64,000 nt of DNA, taken from assembly GCF_963921235.1 (NCBI RefSeq), contig NC_086108.1, forward strand, positions 82,896,001 to 82,960,000, written 5' to 3'. The position numbers and the translations under genes were made by a program. Positions 1 to 40,729 of this stretch are shown in pieces. The notes under the pieces were generated by a model that was not told where the DNA came from, searched no databases, and saw nothing but the letters and a program-made list of their open reading frames with translations. The stretch comes from Mobula hypostoma (Eukaryota). Every line of letters begins with the position of its first letter. The first letter of the stretch is position 1.

Positions 1-2273
1 CCTGATTCTGATAATAATGTTGATGTTGATAGTTTAATGTCCACTATTTAATTAATCATGTTTAGAATTGTTGGCAACTGATTCTATTAAGATTTGAAAG
101 TTTATTCATTGTAGTTAGCAGAAATGTTAATAAATGAATATAGGACAATATTGTTAAAATAAATCATAATATGAAAGATTCAAACTACTTATGTTGGTAC
201 AAGAGTTGAGATATTAATCTCCTGAAGGCACTTACTTTAAATTTATTACGTTTATAACTTAGAGCATCATTGATTACATGGCAGAGAGAAGAGAAATAGT
301 ACGAATAAGAGTTGAAAATTTTCAGAAGAGGTCTGTGCGAAAACTGGCTTTTCTAAAATAATATTTTGCTTTTAAAAACAACCAAATGCATTTACATAGC
401 ACCTTTAACATAGCAACATATTAAGATACTTTAGAGGAGCCTAATTATGCTCAAATTGATCGATTCAAGACAAAACATAGATAAATAGATAAGCAAATGC
501 TTGATCAAAGCACTACATTCTACATTTGCAAATTTTATGAATAAAGCCCATAAAAAAATTCTGGTCGAGGCAATGCTCTCTCAGACCCTCCAATTATGAC
601 GCAAAGATCCTTGCTTGCTCTTCCATCCTCAGGACCACCTAACTCTGCTCTCCACATACCATTATGCTGCATTGGCACATATTGGCTATTAAATTGAATA
701 GCTTTCTTTTTTTTTTGCAGCAGAACTCCCTCCAGTAAAATCCCAGCTATTTGAAGAGATATTCATATAACAAACACATTTTTATGAGCAAAGATCATAA
801 AAATGCTGGGAGGAGTTGCTTTTTAAGCAACAACCTCTCATTCATGAACACATATGTAAATGACCATGCTCAAACGTATGCTTACGCAAGCTAACATGCA
901 TACACGAATCTCCCCAGTAATGTAAAGTGCTATTGCTCTAGCCTTATGGCACTACCTCTTAGTAACACTGCAACATTATTATTTTCTCAACCATCATTAC
1001 TAGCGATTTCAGAAGGTGACTAACTCATTAACTTTTCACACTAACAGGCAGAGCAGAGGTTTTGCGGTTCCTGGTGATCTGAATGTTGCAGTTAAATATA
1101 CACTATGCAGATGCCTTCAATCCAGAATATCACGGTACAATGTACTTACCTTCATCCTACCTGATCAAAGACTTTTTTGGTTTTAAGTGAAATCACAGTG
1201 ACTAGGATTTGCATGCTACCCATGATTGATAAGTTGTCACAATCAACAGCTTTTCCTTAAAAATATGCCTTTGCTCTTTAAAATTTCAAGAAGGATTCAT
1301 TGGTAGTAACAAGATTTTGCAGAATATTACTTCTGTCTCTGAACTTACCCTAATGTTATTCTAGGATATGGCAAAAACCACACTGTTATCATCACTCTTA
1401 TTAGCTGCTATTTCCTTAGCCATCAAAAATTCTGTAAAATAGATTGGCTTCTTGAACACGCACTCAAGAGTTTCACATTAGTCATAAAACCAATATATAA
1501 GCCCTTGTTTTGTGATACACTGTGATATTGGAGTTGCATCATATATCAGCCGTAAAATTTGCTGCCAGATTCCATGTATCTAGAACTAGCTATTTAAACA
1601 ATGTCATGGAGATCTGGAAATTCAGTGGTCATAGTTGAATTTCCATTTCACTCTACCTTCAACTAAGCATCTACCCATCAAGACAACATTTCACACAAAC
1701 CTCTAATAATACTCTCTTGGTATTTTGCCCGTGGAAGCAGATGGTTAAAGAACCGGGATTTTTAAAATATATTTCCTGGAGTTTCTTTTTGCATTTTAAA
1801 GGAGGTTCTGAAGCATTTTGCTCTGTACATTTGCTGGTTTTTGCCATTGCAGTTTTCCACTTGTAAATTTATTTTCCTCTTCTGCTAAAACTTTGCTTAA
1901 TTATTCCTAGTTGCTATTGACTTTTATCCACTGCCTCAAGCAAACAAAGCAGTTAGTAGAAGAGAGAGTGGGCTGAGATCACAAGTTTACATTTCCTGAC
2001 CCGAGAAATAATGACAAGAGCTGACGTCTGCCACATTCATCCAATTTGAGATCAGAGAAAGTGGATTTGACTTGGGACCACAATTACGCACTTTGAGAAT
2101 ACAGGGGCTAATTATGACTTGGGTCCCCAAAAGACTTGAGTATAATCTTTTAACATTGGCCACATTGCCCAGTCTGGTGAACACCTGAGGCACACCTGAC
2201 GCGGCAGGTAGAGAGTGACTCTTTCTGTGATTCTTCCTTTGAAGTCATCGGCAAGTGTTCCCATCAGGCACAT

Positions 2274-2287
2274 CTAGACACGTTCAC
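2274..2287 (-). CDS. Candidate last exon coding part of an unidentified host gene (phase 1: (G)ERV*), followed by a repeat-poor AT-rich putative 3'UTR toward position 1
   Basis: Minus-strand acceptor TTTTTACGTAG|GTGAACGTGTCTAG; positions 1-2300 are nearly repeat-free; minus-strand AATAAA motifs occur (e.g. near 100). The pyrimidine tract is weak. Confidence 0.25.
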
Positions 2288-2584
2288 CTACGTAAAAATT
2301 CATTGCAGATTTTCATTTCCTTTCCTATACAAATATTTGCCTCCAGATAAATGTGTTGACTTTTACTCAATATTCTAGCTGAATCATGCCATGGGCCTAT
2401 TCGGCAATAACTAGAGCAGCTTCAAACTCAATCATTGTTTCAAGGGAGGGACAAAGCTTCTGGTTGGTCCAAGAATGATGTACATAAAAATGGAAACCAA
2501 GACAAGGTCTTCTTTAGTCAAGTATTGATTGCTGCCAGCTTTACAGTCAGGACCTGGTACAGCAATCCCCATGGCATAACCCAC

Positions 2585-2860
2585 AAAGCAGTTCTTTTGA
2601 CCATAAGGATTAGGGGCCAAATTAGGCTATTTGGCCTATCAAGTCTACCCCACCATTCAATCATGGCCGATTTATTTCCCTCTCAGTTCCATTCTCCTGT
2701 CTTCTCCCTGTAACCTTTGATGCCCTGACTAATCAAGAACCCATCCACTCCCACTTTAAATATATCCAAAGCTGTCTGTGGCAATAAATTCCACAGATTC
2801 ACCACTCTTTGGCTGAAAAAATTCTACCTCATCTCTACTCTGAAGAGGCGTCCTTCTATA
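2585..2860 (-). mobile_element. CR1 LINE 3' end fragment
   Basis: Reverse complement of the CR1 ORF2 C-terminus/3'UTR seen elsewhere in the window (TTAGGC..TTTGGCC..CCACCATTCAATCATGGC; AAATTCCACAGATTCACCACTCT). Confidence 0.75.
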
Positions 2861-4039
2861 TCATTTACAAGGTGGTTGAAAGTGAAGCCTAATGAGGATT
2901 GGCACGTACTCTTGTAAACCTGGAGAGAGGCAACAGGCAGAATCACCCCTTCACAGCATTTAAATTAGGGCATTATTGCAAAGGGAAGCTCAACCAACAC
3001 TTCAACTGCATGTTACGTTGGTACTGGAATGTGTGGCGACACGTGTGGGCTGCCATCAGCGCATGCTTAGGTTTTGTTGGTTGTTAACACAAAATACGCA
3101 TTTCACTATGTTTTGATGTAAATGGGATAAATACATGAATCTGAATCAGAGTAGGATGATGATGGACAGTACAACTCTGCTGCCTTTTATTCTTCATCTC
3201 ACTTTGAGCAGCCTCCGCCAGCACGCGCACTATCTTTTCATTAAGAAACCCATGTGCGCACAGGGAGAACTGACAGCACTGGAGTTCAGGATCGAGCCTG
3301 GGCTACTCGAGCTGACAGGCAGCAACACTGTCTGTTCGTCAACCGGATAAAATATATTGTGGAGGAGAGTGGGAGGGAAGAGGGTGAAATTTGCCCGAGT
3401 CCATACATTGAAATCTGAGCAAGCATAGATCTTTTATCAGTCATTTAACTACCTAGGCAAATAAAAAACATGAGGTGATCACTTTGTCTTCTATGTTAAC
3501 AGTGCAAGTAAGCAATGTGACACTTTTCTGGATGCTTTATAATGTTGCTGCCCTTAGCAACCAAGGCAGGTAATTCTCAAAGCACCTGACTTAGGCAGCT
3601 GACAGAATGCCTATAAAACTGCCTGGCCATTTGAGAAGGCATCCGTTATTTATAGTAGACAAAGAGCATTTTTAGAAATGCTATATCTGAAATGTACAAC
3701 TGTTTAACCTCACTAGTAGCCGCTATTTAGCAGATTCCCAACAAATTGCGGTACACATAGAGAAACTTGCCCTCTGCGTTGTGTGCTGAATAAGTGGTGT
3801 AGTAATGTGGGTGTGCTGAGGTCTGTCTCTAAAATTCAGTTCAATCAAAAGCATGAGCACAATAGGTCACCTCCTGTGCTGTAACAGTTCAAGACATTTC
3901 AGAAGCAGTGTTCAATGCACGTACACGTATAGTCCAGGTAAGCACATGGCATGAACATTGGATATTCTATGTATGTCAGAAATATTTTCTACTGATAAAA
4001 AGCACACACCCTGTAAATAGTGCAGGCCAAGTAACCATA

Positions 4040-4247
4040 GTCCCGCTTGGTGGGTGGGGGTGGGGGGGGGGCGCAATAATATCAGCGCCGGACTTAGGAG
4101 TGAAGGTTCCCGAGTTCGATTCCAAGTCAGGTTGAGCGTCGAGCTAGCAGCTCGGCCTTATAAAACCAAGAATAGCTTGCTATGGAAACACCGTCATGAT
4201 GGTGTCCCGATAACTCCACTGCCGAGTTAAGGGCTATTCTTTTTCTT
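4040..4247 (+). mobile_element. tRNA-derived SINE with TSD
   Basis: B-box GTTCGATTCC; TTC-rich tail; 12-bp target-site duplication CAAGTAACCATA at 4028-4039 and 4248-4259; related copy at 8046-8268. Confidence 0.8.
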
Positions 4248-5027
4248 CAAGTAACCATAAGCCATACAGCATATGTAAACAACTTCAGACAAATATTTGC
4301 AGTGTGTCATATTTGTAATCAGCATCAAAAACATTTGCAGTGTGTCATATTAACTACAGAAAAGCCCAAAACAAACAAATGACTGCCGACGCTGGAACTG
4401 TGAAACTGCAGAAACTGAAAAACACTATCACACTGCATGATAGTAGTTACATGTTTAATCACTTCCAATTTCTCTCAGCACTCTACATCTCTGAGTGTAA
4501 GAAAAAAATTAAATCATGAATGTAGCAGGCTGAGCAACAATCATTTTTTAAATTCATGGGAACATTAATATCTATTTAGAAGTCTATCTCATCCTTGTAT
4601 TAAATGTTACTTTGTATTACTTTAATTACTACTAAATTTCTCACTGAAGGTTTCACACAAATGCACAATTCCATTGATCTATAATTTTTGGCAACCTTGA
4701 TTTTTATCTAAAATTTTTGACAAGGTGTCTACGTGATTTAATGTTTAGTTGAAGCAGGAATTATGTTAGAAAATATTGAGATTTGCTTTTAAGGCAAGCA
4801 ATGCAGTACTCTTCATGCATGCTGTATAATATCATTGCCCAAAGAAACCAAAGCATTTCTTCCTCCTGAGAGACTCCCAGGAGACTTCATCCAGGATAGA
4901 AGTAGAGGCCATCCACCACCTAGTGGTGAAATATGTGTCCAATAAATGCTTGGGAGGCGTATGTCACCGTGCACATTTACCATATTGACCGCATGAAATG
5001 GCATTTGGGAAATATGATAAGCATAAC

Positions 5028-5072
5028 CTTAAAGAGTATCCGTCGGTATTCCGGTGTTGACCAGCTCTGTGA
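5028..5072 (-). CDS. Candidate 45-nt exon of an unidentified host gene (phase 1: (V)TELVNTGIPTDTL*; phase 0: SQSWSTPEYRRILFK)
   Basis: Acceptor CTTTTCAG|TCACAG and possible donor AAG|GTTATG in a unique, CpG-retaining island. Confidence 0.35.
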
Positions 5073-5229
5073 CTGAAAAGTATATATATATATTATAGAT
5101 ATTCAGCTGTTAACAAATGGTATTTACAATATGATGGCTGTTGATTTTACTTATTAATTTGCACATTATGGCCATCTACTCGTTAATGCATCTGAAGTGA
5201 GTAGGCACTGAAATTATAAAGGGTCTCGG

Positions 5230-6100
5230 TGAGAAGACCTGAGTAGAGATCTGGTCTTCTTAACTAATATACCTGGGATAAAGGGAATCCAAAAATGAAT
5301 GTTTCCTGGGATGGGGCAATGGTCATGGTGGGGGGGTTGTTGCTGGGGAAAATCATTTTATGCGGAGGGATTAAGCAGACCATGTCGAGTTAGGAGGAGG
5401 GGAATTATATTGTTGTAATATATAGAATTCTTACGAGGCTTGTCATTGTCAAGGCAATAATGATCTTTCACCCTGCGGGAAAAGTCTAGAACCTAGGATG
5501 ACAGACTCAAAATGAGGAGATGGCCATTCATGACTGAGGTGAGAAAAAATAATTCTTCACTAGAATTTCCATCCAAGATGGCTGTGGAGGCCAAATGATT
5601 GATTACATTCAGGGCGGAGACTGATAGTAATTTCTGGATATTAATGTAATTATCGGTGTGGGCACGTGGCCAAGTGGTTCAGGCATTGGACTAGCGATCT
5701 GAAGGTCGTCAGTTCGAGCCCTAGCCGAGAAAGCGTGTTGTGTCCTTGAGCAAGACACTTAATCACACAGTGCTCTGCAGTGACACTGGTGCCAAGCTGT
5801 ATGGGTTCTAATGCCCTTCCCTTGGACAACATCGGTGTCGTGGAGAGGGGAGATTTGCAGCATGGGCAACTGCCGCTCTTCCATACAACCTTGCCCAAGC
5901 CTGCGCCCTGGAGAGCGAAGACTTTCCAGGTGCAGATCCATGGTCTCGCAAGACTAACGGATGCCTCTATTTATTTATTTAATGTAATCAAGGGGTAAGT
6001 GGCTACTGGAGGAAAGGACACTGAGGTAAAATTTTCACTCTGACCTCACTGAAAGGCAGATTAGGAATCAGGGGCAAAGCCTCTTTTGCATTTCTTTATT
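5230..6100 (+). mobile_element. Old CR1 3' fragment interrupted by a SINE
   Basis: Decayed ORF2 C-terminus (SRT*DDRLKMRRWPFMTEVRK) and GGCTGTGGAGGCCAA motif. Confidence 0.6.
5651..5978 (+). mobile_element. tRNA-derived SINE (second family)
   Basis: A-box TGGCCAAGTGG, B-box GTTCGAGCCC, (TTTA)n tail, TSD TTAATGTAAT at 5641-5650 and 5979-5988. Confidence 0.85.
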
Positions 6101-33725: not shown

Positions 33726-35933
33726 CTAAAGCGCTACTTGGTGAACAGTAAAGCACATTAGCAAGCATGCGTTGACGCAAGAAGGCTGACAATACGGTAA
33801 TACAGCTCTTAGATCATCATTCAACAAAACCCTCATCCCAGACATTTTTTTTAGAAATTTAGAAATTTCTCTACGATTTCTAAAGCTTGGTTGATAATTT
33901 AACTCTTATTGTACATATTGTTATGTTGACTTTATTATTTTAATGTATTTTTTTGTTGATTTTCAATAATAATTAATAAAAAAAAAGATCTAAAAATGAA
34001 AAAATGAATTCTGGTGTAAGAGCTGTACTAAACCATTCATTCTGCATTATTTTCTGATGGATATACATTTCAAAATAGGAAAATGGAAAATAAGTGCAGG
34101 CGTAGGCCACTTGGCCTTTTATACATGCTCCACCATTCAACATGATGGCCGTTGTTGTGTATTTAATATTTATTTGAGTAATCTTGTAAGCAATCTTGTT
34201 CATTACATGTTATATGTATGAATACATGAATTGCATACGTCATGATACATGCGTGCCTTGCTAAAAGTAAACACCAAGTTGGACCCGCATTTTGGACTTC
34301 TGTGTTTTCCTTTGAGTTAGTTTAATGTTTTGAAGTTACAAAATATAATGTGGTGATAAAATATTTTTAAAACAAACCCAAGAAGGCTACTAACCTGTTG
34401 AAGTGCAGCAAGATGTTCGAACTAAAACAAAACACGGCGAGTAGAAAACGCAGCCCAGCACGAGCAGAGACGGTCAAGTTAAAACAAAAGCAGTGCAAGC
34501 ACATGTTCTTCGGAAGGGAAGACATAATCAATTTATTTTAAGTCAGTAAATGGAAGAATACACAGATCCCTAAAAGTGAGTACTGGGTGATGATATTCAT
34601 AAAAAAAGGAGAAATGGCTGGCTACATTGGAAAGATAGACATATTTGATAACATAACAGGATTTTATATTCTGAGCTAATTCAACAATATTATAATGCAA
34701 GTTAAATAGTCAATGAGAAACAAGTCCCAATTTTACTGAGTGTACTCCAGCCAAGCCAGCAGAAATGAGCTTTGCTGAAATTGTCAAAGTAATGCAGGAA
34801 CATTTAGAACTGAAGCCATTATTGAGTGCAGAATGGTACAGGATTCAAAAACAGAATCATAAAAAGGGGAGTCCATATGTGACTGAATTGAATAGATTAA
34901 GCATTGTCAGTTCAGTAATGGGCTTAATGATACACTGCGAAATTATTTAGTTCGTGGAATCTTACAAGAAAACATACAAAAATGGATTGTAATTGAAGCT
35001 CACTGATATTCAAAAGAGCAGTTGAAATTGCTTCCTCTGCTACATTGACAACTGAATTGGCCCTGCTTCATGCACCCATGCTGAGCGTGTTAATTGAATC
35101 AACTTTGCCTCTAACTTCCACCCCACCCTTAAATTGACATAGTCCATATTTGACACCTCCGTCCCCTTTTTCAATCTCTCTGTCTCCGTCTGTGGAGACA
35201 AACTGTCAACTGACATCTTTTATAAAGCTACTGCCTCCCATGGTTACCTTGACTACAACTCTTCCCACCCTATCTCCTGTGAAAATGCTATTCCCTTTTC
35301 TCAGGTCCTTTGCCTCCACTGCATCTGTTCCCAAGATGTGGCTTTTCATTCCAGGGCATCAGAGACATCCTCCTTCTTTAAAGAACAGGGTTTCCCTTCC
35401 TCTACTATCGATGCAGCCCTCACCCATACCTCCTTCATTTCCCAAACATTCGTGCTCACCCCATCTTCTTGCTGCCTTAACAGTGATAGTTCCTCTTGTC
35501 ACCTACAACCCCACGAGCCTCCACAGCCAACACATCATCCATCACAACCCCTGACATCCTCATAGGAATCCTAACACTAAATATACCTTTACTACCCCAC
35601 TCTTCACTTTCTGCAGGGATCGTTCCCTCCATGAGACCCTTGTCCATTCATTCCTCCCCACTAATATCCTTCCAGCTGGCCTAAGTGCTACAACTGCCCA
35701 TACACCTCCTCCCTCACTTCCATCCAGAGCCCCAAACCGTTCTTCCAGATGAAGCAACACTTCACCTGCAAACCTGCTGGGGTCATCTATTATATCTGGT
35801 GCTCCCGATGTAGCCTCCTCCGCATTGGTGAGACCCGTCATAAATTGGGGGACTGCTTCATCTAGCACTGCCACATCATAAATCACAAGCATGACTTCCC
35901 AGTAGCCAAACAATTTAATTCTGATTCAATCTA

Positions 35934-37568
35934 CAGTTGAAGTCAGAAGTTTACATACACCTTAGCCAAGTACATTTAAACTCAATTTTTCACAATTCCT
36001 GACATTTAATCCTAGAAAACATACCCTGTCTTAAGTCAGTTAGGATCACTACTTTATTTTAAGAATAAATGTCAGAATAATAGTAGAGAGAATTATTTAT
36101 TTCAGCTTTTATTTCTTTCATCACTTTCCCAGTGGGTCAGAAGTTTACATACACTTCGTTAGTATTTGGTAGCATTGCTTTTAAATTGTTTAACTTGGGT
36201 CAAATGTTTTGGGTAGCCTTCCACAAGCTTCTCACAGTATGTTGCTGGAATTTTGTTCCATTCCTCCAGACAGAACTGGTGTAACTGGGTCAGGTTTGTA
36301 GGCCTCCTTGCTCGCACATGCTTTTTCAGTTCTGCCCACAAATTTTCTATCGGATTGAGGTCAGAAAATGATGTCAAGTCTGGTTCATCCTTGGGAGCAA
36401 TTTCCAAATGCCTGAAGGTGCCACATTTATCTGTACAAACAATAGTACGCAAGTATAAACACCATGGGACCACGCAACCATCATACCGCTCAGGAAGGAG
36501 ACGCATTCTGTCTCCTAGAGATGAACGTATTTGGGTGCGAAAAGTGCTAATCAATCCCAGAACAACAGCAAAGGACCTTGTGAAGGTGCTGGAGGAAACA
36601 GGTAGACAAGTATCTATATCCACAGTAAAACGAGTCCTATATCAACATAACCTGAAAGGCTGCTCAGCAAGGAAGAAGCCACTGCTCCAAAACAGCCATA
36701 AAAAAGCCAGACTACAGTTTGCAAGTGCACATGGGGACAAAGATCTTACTTTTTGGAGAAACGTCCTCTGGTCTGATGAAACAAAAATTGAACTGTTTGG
36801 CCATAATGACCATCGTTATGTTTGGAGGAAAAAGGGTGAAGCTTGCAAGCTGAAGAACACCATCCCAACCGTGAAGCGTGGGGGTGGCAGCATCATGTTG
36901 TGGGGGCTTTGCTGCAGGAGGGACTGGTGCACTTCACAAAACAGATGGCATCATGAAGAAGGAAAATTATGTGGATATATTGAAGCAACATCTCAAGACA
37001 TCAGCCAGGAAGTTAAAGCTCGGTCACAAATGGGTCTTCCAAATGGACAATGACCCCAAGCATACCTCCAAAGTTGTGGCAAAATTGCTTAAGGACAACA
37101 AAGTCAAGGTACTAGAGAGGCCATCACAAAGCCCTGACCTCAATCCAATAGAAAATTTGTGGGCAAAACTGAAAAAGCATGTGTGAGCAAGAAGGCCTAC
37201 AAACCTGACTCAGTTACACCAGTTCTGTCTGGAGGAATGGAACAAAATTCCAGCAGACTTACTGTGAGAAGCTTGTGGAAGGCTACCCAAAACGTTTGAC
37301 CCAAGTTAAACAATTTAAAGGCAATGCTACCAAATACTAACAAAGTGTATGTAAACTTCTGACCCACTGGGAAAGTGATGAAAGAAATAAAAACTGAAAT
37401 AAGTCATTCTCTCTACTATTGTTCTGACATTTCACATTCTTAAAATAAAGTAGTGATCCTAACTGACCTAAGACAGGGAATGTTTTCTTGGATTAAATGT
37501 CACGAATTGTGAAAAACTGAATTTAAGTGTATTTGGCTAAGGTGTATGTAAACTTCTGACTTCAACTG
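35934..37568 (+). mobile_element. Sleeping Beauty/Tss1-like Tc1 transposon, rearranged and frameshifted
   Basis: TA-CAGTTGAAGTCAGAAGTTTACATACAC termini; transposase segments WSDETKIELFG, QMDNDPKH, SPDLNPIENLW, VKQFKGNATKY. Confidence 0.95.
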
Positions 37569-37750
37569 TATGGCCTCTTCTTTTTCCAAGATGAGGCCAC
37601 CTCAAGGTGGAGGAGCATTGCCTTATATTCCAATCTAGGTACTCTCCAACCTGATGGCATGAATATTGATTTCTCTTTCCAGTGACCAAATTTCCCCCAC
37701 CCCCTTCCTCTAATCCCCACTCTGAACTTCCACTTCTCACCTGCTTATTA

Positions 37751-38330
37751 GACAATAGACAATAGGTGCAGGAGTAGGCCATTCGGCCCTTCAAGCCAGC
37801 ACCGCCATTCACTGTGATCATGGCTGATCACCCACAATCAGTATCCAGTTCCTGCCTTATCCCCATAACCTTTGATTCCGCTATCTTTAAGAGCTCTATC
37901 CATCTCTTTCTTGAAAGCATTCAGAGACTTGGCCTCCACGGCCTTCTGGGGCAGAGCATTCCATATATCCACCACTCTCTGGGTGAAAAAGTTTTTCCTC
38001 AACTCCGTTCTAAATGGCCTACCCCTTATTCTTAAACTGTGGCCTCTGGTTCTGGACTCACCCATCAGCGGGAACATGCTTCCTGCCTCCAGTGTGTCCA
38101 ATCCCTTAATAATCTTATATGTTTCAATAAGATCCCCTCTCAACCTTCTAAATTCCATTGTATACAAGCCCAGTCACTACAATCTTTGGACATATGACAG
38201 TCCCGCCATCCCAGGAATTAACCTTGTGAACCTATGCTGCACTCCCTCAATAGCAAGAATGTCCTTCCTCAAATTTGGAGACCAAAATTGCACACAGTAC
38301 TCCAGGTGTGATCGCACTAGGGCCCTGTAC
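37751..38330 (-). mobile_element. Young CR1 3' end
   Basis: ORF 37838-38167 (EFRRLRGDLIETYKII...SRTRGHSLRI); GACAATA-repeat tail. Confidence 0.9.
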
Positions 38331-39440
38331 TTCCCCCAGGGTCATTATGTACTTATTACTTCCCCCAGGGTCCTCTCCTCCTTCCCTTTCTCCTATTGTC
38401 CATTTTCCTCTCCTATTAGATTGTTTCTTCTCCAGCCCTTGCTCTTTCTCACCCACTGGGCTTCACCTTTCACCTACCAGCTATCCTTTCCCCCCCTCCC
38501 CCCACCTTTTTACTTAGGCATCGTCCCCTTTGCTTTTCAATCTAGAAGAAGGGTCTTGGACCAAATCGTCGACTGTTTAATCTTCTCCACTGATGCTGCC
38601 TGTTCTGAGTTCCTCCAGCATTTGTGTGTTTGTGTGCATTGAGCTGAAATTGCTGTTTCAATGGAAACCACTGTCAGAGATGTAATTGAGTTGCAAACAG
38701 GAACTCAATTGAGCATGAGCAAATTTGCAAAGTCTAAACAGAAACCAGTCTGGCCGAACAAATTGTGTTATTATTGTGGCAGAGGCTCACATACGCCAAA
38801 CCAATGCAGAACCTGTAGAAGATGCAACAAAGTAGGACACTTGGGCAGAAAAAACTAAATGGACTGCACAGGGAAGAGAAAAGGCTAAAAGTTGCAGTTT
38901 CAAAAAGAGCACCAAACTACATGTTGTTGATGAATATCTGATAATGGCAAGAGTGACAGCGAATTGAGAAACCTTGACATTTACAATGTGTAAACTAGCA
39001 ATAGTCAAGCAATATAGCTTACACCAGAGGTGAATGGCAAATTATTGAAAATGGAATTAGACATTGGTTCCGGTATTTCAATCATTTCACTAAATCAGTT
39101 TCAACAGCATTTCAAAGATACTAAAATGAAGACTGCAGATATCCAACTAAGAATTTGTTCTAGAGTAAAGTTAACTCCTGTGGGAATGACATTTGTAACA
39201 GTGAAATACAACAACCAACAAGCCACGTTGGTCTTGTATGTGGTGGAAACAGGAGGGCTAGCATTGTGGGGCTGTGAATGGCTGAGACAACTACAACTTG
39301 ATTGCAGATCCTTCTACCATTTGCATGCCACTTCCCCTGCAATAGAGTCAATAGAAACCAAATTACGAAAGGTACTAGATGATGCCTTAGCTGTCTCCAT
39401 GCCAAACACCATGAACCGTTGCCCAACAGAGGACAAACAG

Positions 39441-39980
39441 GTGTTGGTGCCAGCCTCTGTGCCTCTGGATGGAAAGAATATTGGACCAAGGAAGGACCCT
39501 GCTGCTCGGTGGAAGCATGGAAATGATGAAAGCAGTGGTCTGACAACAACAGTTCTTGTAGGTGACATATCTGAGCAAGCTTCTGAAATGTTAATCAGGC
39601 AGTTACTTGCAAAATGTGGCTTGGTTTTAAACTGGAAGAGAGTTCAAGGAGCTTCATAAAGTTGCAAGCAGTTGGCTTTTGTGAGTAAACAGAATAAGAA
39701 TCTACTTTGTGTGCATTAAGGTTATTGCATGAACTTCAAGTGAGAGACAAAAAGCTGCTTGTAAAAGCAGATGCAAAGACCAAAGCCCAGCTGGATGAAT
39801 GGAAGGCAAAAATGAAACAGAGGATTCATCAGATGATGTTGTGGATGAGGAAACCAAGAGGCGAGATCAGCGTAAAGGGAGCAATAGAAGGATTAATAAG
39901 AGAATACTCCAGTGAACTAAATGCACCTTTCTAAAATCAAGATGCACAAACCGGAAGAAGGAAAAGGAAGGAGAATAAAA
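39441..39980 (+). pseudogene. RBM25: Processed RBM25 fragment (RRM and following helix) inside the LTR element
   Basis: VLVP...TTTVLVGDISEQASEMLIRQLLAKCGLVLNWKRVQGAS / LRLLHELQVRDKKLLVKADAKTKAQLDEWKAK / KGAIEGLIREYSSELNAP matches the recalled RBM25 N-terminal RRM region; intronless; contains stops and frameshifts. Confidence 0.9.
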
Positions 39981-40729
39981 GGTGTCCAGGGCTGTCAGAA
40001 CCACTTCCTACAGTCTCAGAGTCAACTCCTGCAACCACCATGGAGGAGGCCCCAGAACCTGAGATAGTTTCACAGCCACAAGCCTCACCTGCCCAGTAGA
40101 GTGACCTCCCTTGTCAGGAAACACATTATCCCCCAAGAGCAAGAAACCCTCCAGAGCAATGAAATCTTTAGGCCAGAATGGGACAACCTCAAATTTATTA
40201 TGCTGTGGATGCCTGTATATAGCAGTTTTATTATATAATATATAGTGTATATAGTTGAGATGCATTCTCTATTGAGTTGGAGTTTATAGCTAAGCAGTGA
40301 GGAATGTTGTGTATTTAATATTTAACATATTTGAGCAACCTTGTGTATATATTGTTTGATTAAGCATTCTTTTTTGTTTAAATATATACAGGTTATATGT
40401 ATAAATATGTGAATTGCATACATTATCATGCTTCCATGTGATATGCACGTGCCTCATTAAAGTAAATGTGAATTTAGACCTGCATCTCAGACTCCTGTGT
40501 CTTTCTTCAAATTAGATAATATTTTGAAGTTACAAAACATTGCAACGCATCCAGGTTCGCTAATCTGTTCCAGCTTTTCCTCATGCTAGACCCAAGAACA
40601 ATATCTAATCTCTTTTTGAATATAGGTAATGATTTGTCTTCAAATGTCTTCTAGGGTAGAGAATTTTACAGGTCTACTGTTTACTGCAAGAAGAAAGATG
40701 CTTTCTGTCTCATTCTGAAATAGCATATC

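What the first reader, a model, noticed from the sequence alone, without database searches (positions are those of the whole stretch)
34153..40544. LTR retrotransposon that has captured a spliced RBM25 mRNA segment in place of RT/RNaseH/integrase
Seen: two homologous LTRs enclose gag, a CCHC knuckle and protease. The protease frame (39030-39659) then runs directly into the RBM25 RRM, and after ~39980 the sequence returns to a typical Gypsy pol tail (HYPPRARNPP), PPT and 3' LTR. No RT, RNaseH or integrase core is present. Established: RBM25 is a multi-exon splicing factor, and template-switch capture of host mRNA between LTRs is known from retroviral transduction and LTR-borne retrocopies. Inference: this may be a non-autonomous family that spread a Gag-PR-RRM chimera, in which a host RNA-binding domain could have affected packaging or host splicing. 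This copy is decayed (stops, frameshifts, diverged LTRs, no recognisable TSD).
Basis: partly seen in the sequence, partly recalled or inferred. Interest (0 to 1): 0.85.

Follow-up and report, generated by a model that had tools for sequence, protein, structure and literature searches.

The report
Gypsy family carrying spliced RBM25 message
This is one old, broken copy of a jumping-gene family in which the element's own copying enzymes are replaced by an intron-free piece of the host splicing-factor gene RBM25; the hybrid likely borrowed enzymes from its intact relatives to spread to an estimated few thousand places, and no sign was found that the captured piece ever did a job.

Summary
Confirmed. 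The element (34153-40544) is LTR-gag-CCHC-protease-[spliced RBM25]-pol tail-PPT-LTR, with an unmentioned 3.6-kb nest of other repeats splitting gag. The RBM25 piece matches five host exons at 87-92% without introns. It is a family: 285 exact spliced-junction and 142 exact protease|RBM25 matches genome-wide, extrapolating to about 2,000-6,000 copies. A parent Gypsy family with the same LTR, gag, protease and tail keeps RT/RNaseH/integrase. The junctions sit on 7- and 10-nt microhomologies. The first capture spanned nine exons; shared deletions later trimmed it. Column counts show gag-protease-RRM was one frame in the source elements, but copies decayed neutrally (0-fold/4-fold 1.02) and none of the best 150 has an intact frame. 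LTR pairs differ by about 20%; this insertion is shared with two other organisms. The mechanism is known (Tan 2016, PMC5131818); the scale is not matched in the papers read. A role for the RRM is unsupported. The scan already reported this family on other DNA of this genome.

The parts
34153..34349 (+). 5' LTR (carries internal deletions relative to the 3' LTR); end approximate
   Evidence: 18.8% different from the 3' LTR over 192 aligned nt
34350..34360 (+). decayed primer-binding-site-like stretch (inferred from position and from other copies; the tRNA was not identified)
34614..35032 (+). gag, 5' part, broken by stops and frameshifts
   Evidence: tblastn with P0251 residues 20-147; ATG position
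35033..38654 (.). nest of later insertions, not part of the family: LINE/Penelope-like pieces (labels recalled, no Pfam hit) and a Tc1/Sleeping-Beauty-like transposon at 35934-37568; flanked by a 10-nt duplication (35023-35032 / 38645-38654)
   Evidence: absent from the other copies, in which the two gag halves are contiguous
38655..39017 (+). gag 3' part with double CCHC zinc knuckle (about 38770-38850)
   Evidence: Pfam zf-CCHC_5 E 0.0079 and zf-CCHC E 0.021, below cut-off; tblastn P0251 157-405
39018..39383 (+). aspartic protease and linker; catalytic motif altered in this copy
   Evidence: Pfam RVP E 0.0022; 1520 relatives at E<=0.001, best 46-51% identical
39384..39392 (+). 5' switch point: last 9 nt of host RBM25 exon 3 (decayed here); 7-nt microhomology with the parent pol, in frame
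39393..39440 (+). RBM25 48-nt cassette exon ('exon X'), host C1:99832633-99832586
   Evidence: 92% identity; splice signals in host; same peptide in shark RBM25 P0121/P0391 and a transcript-derived protein P0392
39441..39947 (+). four further spliced RBM25 exons with the RRM (about 39546-39770); broken by a 1-nt and a 2-nt frameshift, a 22-nt deletion and stops; 3' end approximate
   Evidence: 87-90% identity to host exons; breaks listed
39948..39981 (+). purine-rich remnant of RBM25 exons 9 and 10 left by two shared deletions; ends in the 10-nt microhomology of the 3' switch point
39982..40288 (+). parent pol C-terminal tail and 3' untranslated region
   Evidence: same tail follows integrase in parent copies
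40289..40304 (+). polypurine tract (decayed)
40305..40544 (+). 3' LTR; its junction with the flank is also present in organisms B and F

Best explanation
A Gypsy LTR retrotransposon has its RT-RNaseH-integrase region replaced by spliced RBM25 exons, most likely through two template switches during reverse transcription of a co-packaged host mRNA, and the hybrid then likely spread as a non-autonomous passenger of its parent family to an estimated few thousand sites before decaying neutrally. Steps: (1) shown - parent and hybrid share LTR, gag, protease and tail; (2) shown - 7-nt and 10-nt identities between parent and host mRNA lie exactly at the two junctions; inferred - these guided the switches; (3) shown - about 3 kb of pol was exchanged for 1,072 nt of mRNA from the end of exon 3 to the start of exon 10, in frame at the 5' side, out of frame with the pol tail at the 3' side; (4) inferred - the hybrid kept both LTRs, PBS, PPT and a translatable gag-protease, so its RNA was packaged and copied by enzymes supplied in trans; being 40-50% shorter than the parent may have helped; (5) shown - shared deletions removed most of the purine-rich exons 8-10, and the short form became the commonest; (6) shown - hybrid and parent copies are equally old and broken. 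The RRM was most likely cargo.
For: Intron loss: five host exons in the window copy, nine in L107. Family: all 40 scored DNA matches carry the segment, 2,942 first-look candidates; 142 exact protease|RBM25 junctions; 285 exact spliced exon junctions, reversed-pattern control 0; 57 of 60 junction-picked loci have RBM25 protein matches and 0 of 60 an RT match. Parent: 366 exact matches; 17 of 20 such loci have RT matches, 1 is RBM25-type; 12 of 12 longer stretches continue into pol, 7 reach integrase, none matches RBM25 exons. Microhomology chance 0.0006 and 0.00002 per random pair of positions. 5-bp TSDs: flank identity 0.56 against 0.27 shuffled, 1 of 2000, n=9. One frame: 0 of 395 codon columns from ATG to junction have a stop in more than half of 32 copies, against 49 and 31 in the other frames; at most 18% stops in any RBM25 column. 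Neutral decay: 0-fold/4-fold ratio 1.02 (0.87-1.22) in RBM25, 79 of 89 copies kept; 0.89 (0.76-1.04) in gag-protease. Age: LTR pairs 16-24% apart in 9 true hybrid pairs, 17-21% in 5 parents, 18.8% here.
Against: The RRM-bearing 600 nt survived while the downstream 450 nt were lost in shared deletions (48 of 89 copies carry the first deletion, 7 of 89 keep the exon 7|8 junction), and no shared amino-acid change was seen inside the RRM; this would also fit selection, though the lost part is slippage-prone repeat and there were almost no shared silent changes either. In-frame stops were somewhat fewer than modelled (0.76 against 0.84-0.89 off frame; p=0.10). Trans-mobilisation and co-packaging were not observed, only inferred. 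Copy number is an extrapolation with a wide interval.
Confidence: 0.85

Rival explanations
1. The captured RRM was useful to the element: the single gag-protease-RBM25 frame would put an RNA-binding domain where RT normally sits, the element's protease would release it inside the particle, and it would help select, export or package the hybrid RNA, explaining the large expansion.
For: In-frame fusion in the source elements; the catalytic protease motif is kept in 17 of 32 hybrid rows against 2 of 6 parent rows; RRM retained with no shared amino-acid change while the RE-rich tail was deleted; hybrid-to-parent exact counts 142:366, far above the 1-9 copies of published captures read here.
Against: An in-frame junction arises by chance one time in three; no purifying signal; subfamily variants in the captured part are 4 amino-acid-changing to 1 silent; frame after the deletions is not kept consistently (the common 41/38/35-nt class keeps it, most 105-153-nt classes do not).
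Confidence: 0.12
2. The captured sequence acted as a shield at RNA level: small RNAs aimed at the element would also hit the essential RBM25 message, so the host would have tempered silencing and the hybrid would have multiplied (epigenetic conflict as proposed for maize elements).
For: Model described in 10.1101/777037 (abstract). The host gene differs from the source state at 13 of 85 four-fold sites, no less than neutral copies do (10.8%), which would fit escape from targeting.
Against: 13 of 85 is not significantly above 10.8% (p=0.13). The maize abstract reports no increase in copy number for capturing elements. The parent family, without the shield, is at least as numerous and equally old.
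Confidence: 0.07
3. An ordinary LINE-made RBM25 processed pseudogene landed in an already deleted LTR element, once, at this site.
For: The genome is rich in LINE-like repeats, and this copy is riddled with insertions.
Against: No poly(A) or duplication around the insert, mRNA truncated at both ends, both junctions on parent-host microhomologies, and the same junctions at hundreds of loci.
Confidence: 0.01
4. One copy somewhere in the genome has been domesticated as a gag-protease-RRM or RRM-only host gene.
For: Thousands of chances; some copies keep open frames of 280-380 codons across the junction.
Against: Best 150 of 5,555 candidates: top identity to shark RBM25 is 80% over the full length, longest open frame 381 aa against about 600 needed, most have stops; 2 of 72 sampled copies are unbroken over 570 nt. 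Only the best-scoring candidates were examined.
Confidence: 0.04

Closest known systems
LTR-mediated retrocopies of animals (Tan et al. 2016, Genome Res 26:1663, PMC5131818; passages; section 5)
   Same: Partial spliced mRNA replaces part of the internal ORF between two LTRs; microsimilarity at both switch points (median 6 bp there, 7 and 10 nt here); no poly(A) or TSD around the insert; secondary retroposition as a non-autonomous element.
   Different: The passages read describe single loci or a few insertion sites (18 sites for nine fly retrocopies; 5, 4, 8 and 3 cases in zebrafish, chicken, mouse, human). Here one capture gave hundreds of exactly countable and an estimated 2,000-6,000 copies, with a nested deletion series and a coexisting parent family.
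Maize Bs1 (as described in PMC5131818, passages; the original papers were not read)
   Same: Host exons captured inside an LTR element; all copies share switch points.
   Different: Bs1 joins three genes and has one to five copies; this has one donor, thousands of estimated copies, and is dead.
Crocodilian ERV captures of KIT-ligand and nectin3 (Chong et al. 2014, PMC4299795; passages)
   Same: Ancient vertebrate LTR element carrying a host mRNA, shared between species.
   Different: ERVs, six to nine copies, separate ORFs reported under purifying selection; here a Gypsy element, an in-frame polyprotein fusion replacing RT-RNaseH-integrase, neutral decay.
Vertebrate single-ORF Gypsy elements annotated 'K02A2.6-like' (P0243, Xenopus; P0251); the clade name Mag is recalled, not tested
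   Same: gag, CCHC knuckles, protease (40-51% identity), and pol tail ending in a YP-R-R-P-type motif.
   Different: They carry RT, RNaseH and integrase; the hybrid does not, its parent family does.

Membership tests
LTR-mediated retrocopy (Tan 2016) | Retrocopy flanked on both sides by the same LTR element, both LTRs present | tested here: met
LTR-mediated retrocopy (Tan 2016) | Part of the element's ORF replaced, not merely interrupted | tested here: met
   parent copies hold RT-RNaseH-integrase between the same two points
LTR-mediated retrocopy (Tan 2016) | Introns lost | tested here: met
   host exons separated by 1.1-6.1 kb introns are contiguous
LTR-mediated retrocopy (Tan 2016) | Microsimilarity at the switch points | tested here: met
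   7 nt and 10 nt; chance 0.0006 and 0.00002
LTR-mediated retrocopy (Tan 2016) | No poly(A) tail or TSD around the mRNA part | tested here: met
   junction sequences of 30 copies
LTR-mediated retrocopy (Tan 2016) | Secondary retroposition: dispersed copies share switch points and have own target sites | tested here: met
   5-bp TSD signal in 9 full-length copies, 8 of them hybrid
Autonomous Gypsy (Metaviridae) element | pol with RT, RNaseH, integrase in that order | tested here: not met
   absent from the hybrid; present in that order in the parent family
Autonomous Gypsy (Metaviridae) element | TG...CA LTRs, PPT, 4-6 bp TSD, gag with CCHC, aspartic protease | tested here: met
   TSD shown for the family, not for this copy
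Mag clade of Gypsy | Placement in an RT phylogeny | not tested
   label recalled from single-ORF layout and K02A2.6-like relatives
Domesticated retrotransposon-host chimeric gene | Intact open frame at a fixed locus | tested here: not met
   this copy is broken; none intact in the best 150 of 5,555 candidates
Domesticated retrotransposon-host chimeric gene | Purifying selection | tested here: not met
   0-fold/4-fold 1.02, pooled over copies; a single selected copy would not show
Domesticated retrotransposon-host chimeric gene | Expression of the fusion | tested here: inconclusive
   one possible RNA run laid; no listed piece bridged the protease|RBM25 junction, but most pieces were not shown
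LINE-type processed pseudogene | 3' end with poly(A), own TSD, single locus | tested here: not met

The most novel reading that the evidence does not exclude
A vertebrate Gypsy lineage swapped its RT-RNaseH-integrase for a host splicing-factor RRM in the same polyprotein frame and gained from it: the protease-released RRM (or the host-mimicking RNA that silencing could not safely target) made the hybrid RNA out-compete for particles, driving one of the largest expansions of a single captured host mRNA in a vertebrate genome, comparable in size to its own autonomous parent.
Probability: 0.15. Interest if true: 0.85.

Novelty: new variant of a known kind. Interest (0 to 1): 0.55.

Why it matters
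The capture mechanism is published, but the examples read here have one to nine copies. This family shows that one LTR-borne retrocopy can become a repeat family of its own in a vertebrate, with donor gene, parent element, both switch points and a deletion series all still readable in one genome. It gives a population-sized data set for asking whether captured host sequence helps a retrotransposon, preserves an old RBM25 splice form that includes a cassette exon seen only in cartilaginous-fish sequences among 207 proteins checked, offers orthologous insertion markers for related species, and is a practical trap: thousands of RBM25-like frames can inflate gene and pseudogene annotation and mis-map RBM25 RNA reads.

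Tried and rejected
Pfam PWI search for the host gene found two other PWI genes, read from their translations as SRRM1 and PRPF3 (names recalled), not RBM25; the gene was then found with a stretch of P0001. ESM Atlas gave no usable hit for the 78-aa piece. PDB sequence search gave nothing for the window ORF and only generic RRMs for L010. Word-based search for longer relatives of the protease found none; the profile-free library search did. No gag-RRM fusion protein from another species was seen among the 120 listed hits (judged by names, Pfam labels and coverage; best coverage 75%) or the 7 protease relatives scanned. Raw NG86 dN/dS (0.47 against host, 0.82 against column-commonest) was rejected as a selection test: the first includes host-lineage silent change, the second is biased by transitions; the base-standardised ratio replaced it. 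A gag ratio of 0.78 (0.63-0.97) in 32 rows weakened to 0.86 (0.70-1.05) with more rows and the range corrected, and to 0.97 without highly variable columns. Frame-keeping by the shared deletions was considered and not supported. Two of 11 automatic LTR pairs (L122, L126) were not LTRs and were dropped by eye from the range quoted. L004 was dropped as a near-identical duplicate of L002. No RNA holder listed; this says nothing on expression. No tRNA gene in the window. Seven paper searches listed no paper on an RBM25-bearing element; RBM25 occurs 0 times in the main text of two ray genome papers. Supplements, Repbase and Dfam were not seen and may hold this family.
Full report
Observation. The window holds two LTRs (34153-~34349, 40305-40544; 18.8% different) around gag, a double zinc knuckle, a protease, an RRM-like stretch, a pol tail and a polypurine tract. 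A full Gypsy polyprotein (P0251; RT, RNaseH and integrase domains by Pfam) matches the element only up to its residue 405, so the enzyme core is absent.

The insert is spliced RBM25. The matching region of copy L010 hits RBM25 proteins (best 66%, E 6.7e-57; best 75% to a shark protein, P0121). The host gene lies on contig C1. The window segment matches five host exons at 87-92% with introns of 1.7-4.8 kb missing; three junctions are clean, the fourth lies under a 22-nt deletion. The first is a 48-nt cassette exon with good splice signals; its peptide was found in 3 of 207 RBM25-like proteins, two named as shark and one unnamed. The host protein is 194 of 201 residues identical to the shark one, so the genome is most likely a cartilaginous fish (inference).

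It is a family. All 40 scored matches of a DNA search carried the segment, out of 2,942 first-look candidates, and 29 fetched loci showed the same order of parts, several of them interrupted or truncated. Exact patterns give 142 protease|RBM25 junctions and 285 spliced exon junctions, reversed controls 0. The exon-junction pattern is exact in 9 of 89 sampled copies (3 of 60 junction-picked, 6 of 29 similarity-picked), which extrapolates to about 2,800 copies (1,600-6,000 from the binomial interval; about 5,700 from the 60 alone); the 5' junction (2 of 29) gives about 2,100. Of the first 60 listed junction matches, all fetched, 57 had an RBM25 protein match and none an RT match. In nine full-length elements (eight hybrids, one parent) the 5-bp flanks were 0.56 identical against 0.27 when shuffled (1 of 2000): copies were integrated one by one. 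The window copy's own TSD is not recognisable.

The parent. The same protease end followed by non-RBM25 letters occurs 366 times. Of 20 such loci 17 matched RT, one was RBM25-type and two neither. Twelve longer stretches, picked among those with the commonest continuation, share LTR, gag, protease and tail with the window element; all continue into pol, seven reach integrase, none matches RBM25 exons. At the 5' junction parent and host exon 3 share TGCCACA, in the same reading frame; at the 3' junction parent tail and host exon 10 share GGAGAAGAAA, in different frames. Random position pairs reach 7 and 10 nt with probability 0.0006 and 0.00002. There is no poly(A) or duplication around the insert.

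History of the insert. Copy L107 carries the whole capture, 1,072 nt over nine exons, from the end of exon 3 to the start of exon 10 (exon numbers are my own). Most copies lost the purine-rich end: 48 of 89 show a shared first deletion and 7 of 89 keep the exon 7|8 junction. The window copy is the commonest short form. Shared deletions mean that the trimmed forms were amplified in turn.

Reading frame and selection. In 32 hybrid copies that were colinear over gag-protease (of 88 examined), none of the 395 codon columns between the start codon and the junction has a stop in more than half of the copies in the RBM25 frame, against 49 and 31 columns in the other two frames; in the RBM25 part the highest stop share is 18%. 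So the source elements read gag-protease-RBM25 as one frame. Copies differ from the column-commonest letter by 11.5% on average (7-20%), and sites where every change alters the protein diverged as fast as silent ones: ratio 1.02 (0.87-1.22) in RBM25 for 79 of 89 copies above 78% identity to the host, 0.89 (0.76-1.04) in gag-protease. Variants shared by at least a fifth of copies, CpG-like ones set aside, number five in the captured part (four amino-acid-changing, none inside the RRM) and 48 in gag-protease (17 silent). Twenty of these 48 are alleles also common in parent copies; the excess (p=0.0001) suggests that hybrids recombined repeatedly with varied autonomous partners, but the two regions were aligned by different methods. 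A protein search for a well-kept copy scored the best 150 of 5,555 candidates: at most 80% identity over the full length and no open frame above 381 residues.

Age. True LTR pairs differ by 16-24% in nine hybrids, 17-21% in five parents and 18.8% here. The host differs from the source state at 13 of 85 four-fold sites, about as much as the copies drifted, so capture and burst were close in time (inference). Sequencing runs of six labelled organisms hold at least a fifth of the stretch's words. Contigs bridging this copy's 3' LTR and its flank exist in organism B (9 differences in 373 nt) and organism F (29 in 372), and very many diverged contigs lie on the RBM25 segment in B, D and F: insertion and family predate these splits. 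No calibrated date was computed.

How it most likely worked. Reverse transcriptase in a parent particle would have switched onto a co-packaged RBM25 mRNA at the tail microhomology and back onto the element RNA at the protease microhomology. The product kept every cis signal and a translatable gag-protease, and would have been copied with enzymes from the parent family; both died out together. The fused RBM25 piece would have been translated, but nothing here shows that it mattered (confidence 0.85). Rivals: a useful RRM (0.12), a silencing shield (0.07; host silent divergence not significantly high, p=0.13), a domesticated copy (0.04), a chance pseudogene insertion (0.01).

Comparison. Tan et al. 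[quoted passage not shown] They cite maize Bs1 at one to five copies; crocodilian ERV captures have six to nine (PMC4299795, passages). Seven searches listed no paper on this family, two ray genome papers do not mention RBM25 in their main text, and the passages read from the VGP preprint report lower retrocopy counts outside mammals with repeat-overlapping candidates filtered out (PMC13320880). Supplements and repeat databases were not seen. The scan itself has reported this family before on other DNA of this genome (116 notes fit the look-up, 8 shown); my reading was recorded before that and those notes are not independent evidence.

Verdict. Real, well supported, known mechanism at unusual scale, function unshown: new variant of a known kind, interest 0.55.

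Noticed in passing
window 35934-37568: Tc1/Sleeping-Beauty-like transposon with near-perfect terminal repeats and TA flanks; a 278-aa frame hits HTH_Tnp_Tc3_2 (E 9e-22) and HTH_SB; it looks much younger than the LTR element and has a rearranged inverted piece near 36160-36370.
   Followed up: partly
G000:C1:99832633-99832586 (L041): 48-nt in-frame cassette exon of host RBM25, identical in peptide to shark RBM25 and found in only 3 of 207 RBM25-like proteins checked; shark isoforms differ by a 4-residue extension (CFTQ).
   Followed up: partly
G000:C1:99876648-99876705 and 99906402-99906504 (L045, L048): LTR fragments of the same family lie 36-66 kb upstream of the donor RBM25 gene, on the opposite strand; probably chance given the copy number.
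   Followed up: no
L002 and L004 (C91:12.60 Mb and 14.73 Mb): Two copies near-identical at both junctions although both are old, suggesting a recent segmental duplication on C91.
   Followed up: no
gag-protease alignment of 84 hybrid and 22 parent loci: Subfamily-level variation is 4.7 times denser in gag-protease than in the captured part, and 20 of 48 variants are shared with parents: possible repeated recombination with autonomous partners.
   Followed up: partly
window 35143-35925 and 37838-38173: Decayed pieces that read like a Penelope-type RT end with GIY-YIG endonuclease (+) and a CR1/L2-type 3' end (-); labels recalled, Pfam gave no hit for the two frames tested.
   Followed up: no
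L080 (G000:C2:34941175-34949706): Parent-type copy with a plain internal deletion from RT to the integrase end, a natural control for whether short derivatives without RBM25 also amplified.
   Followed up: no
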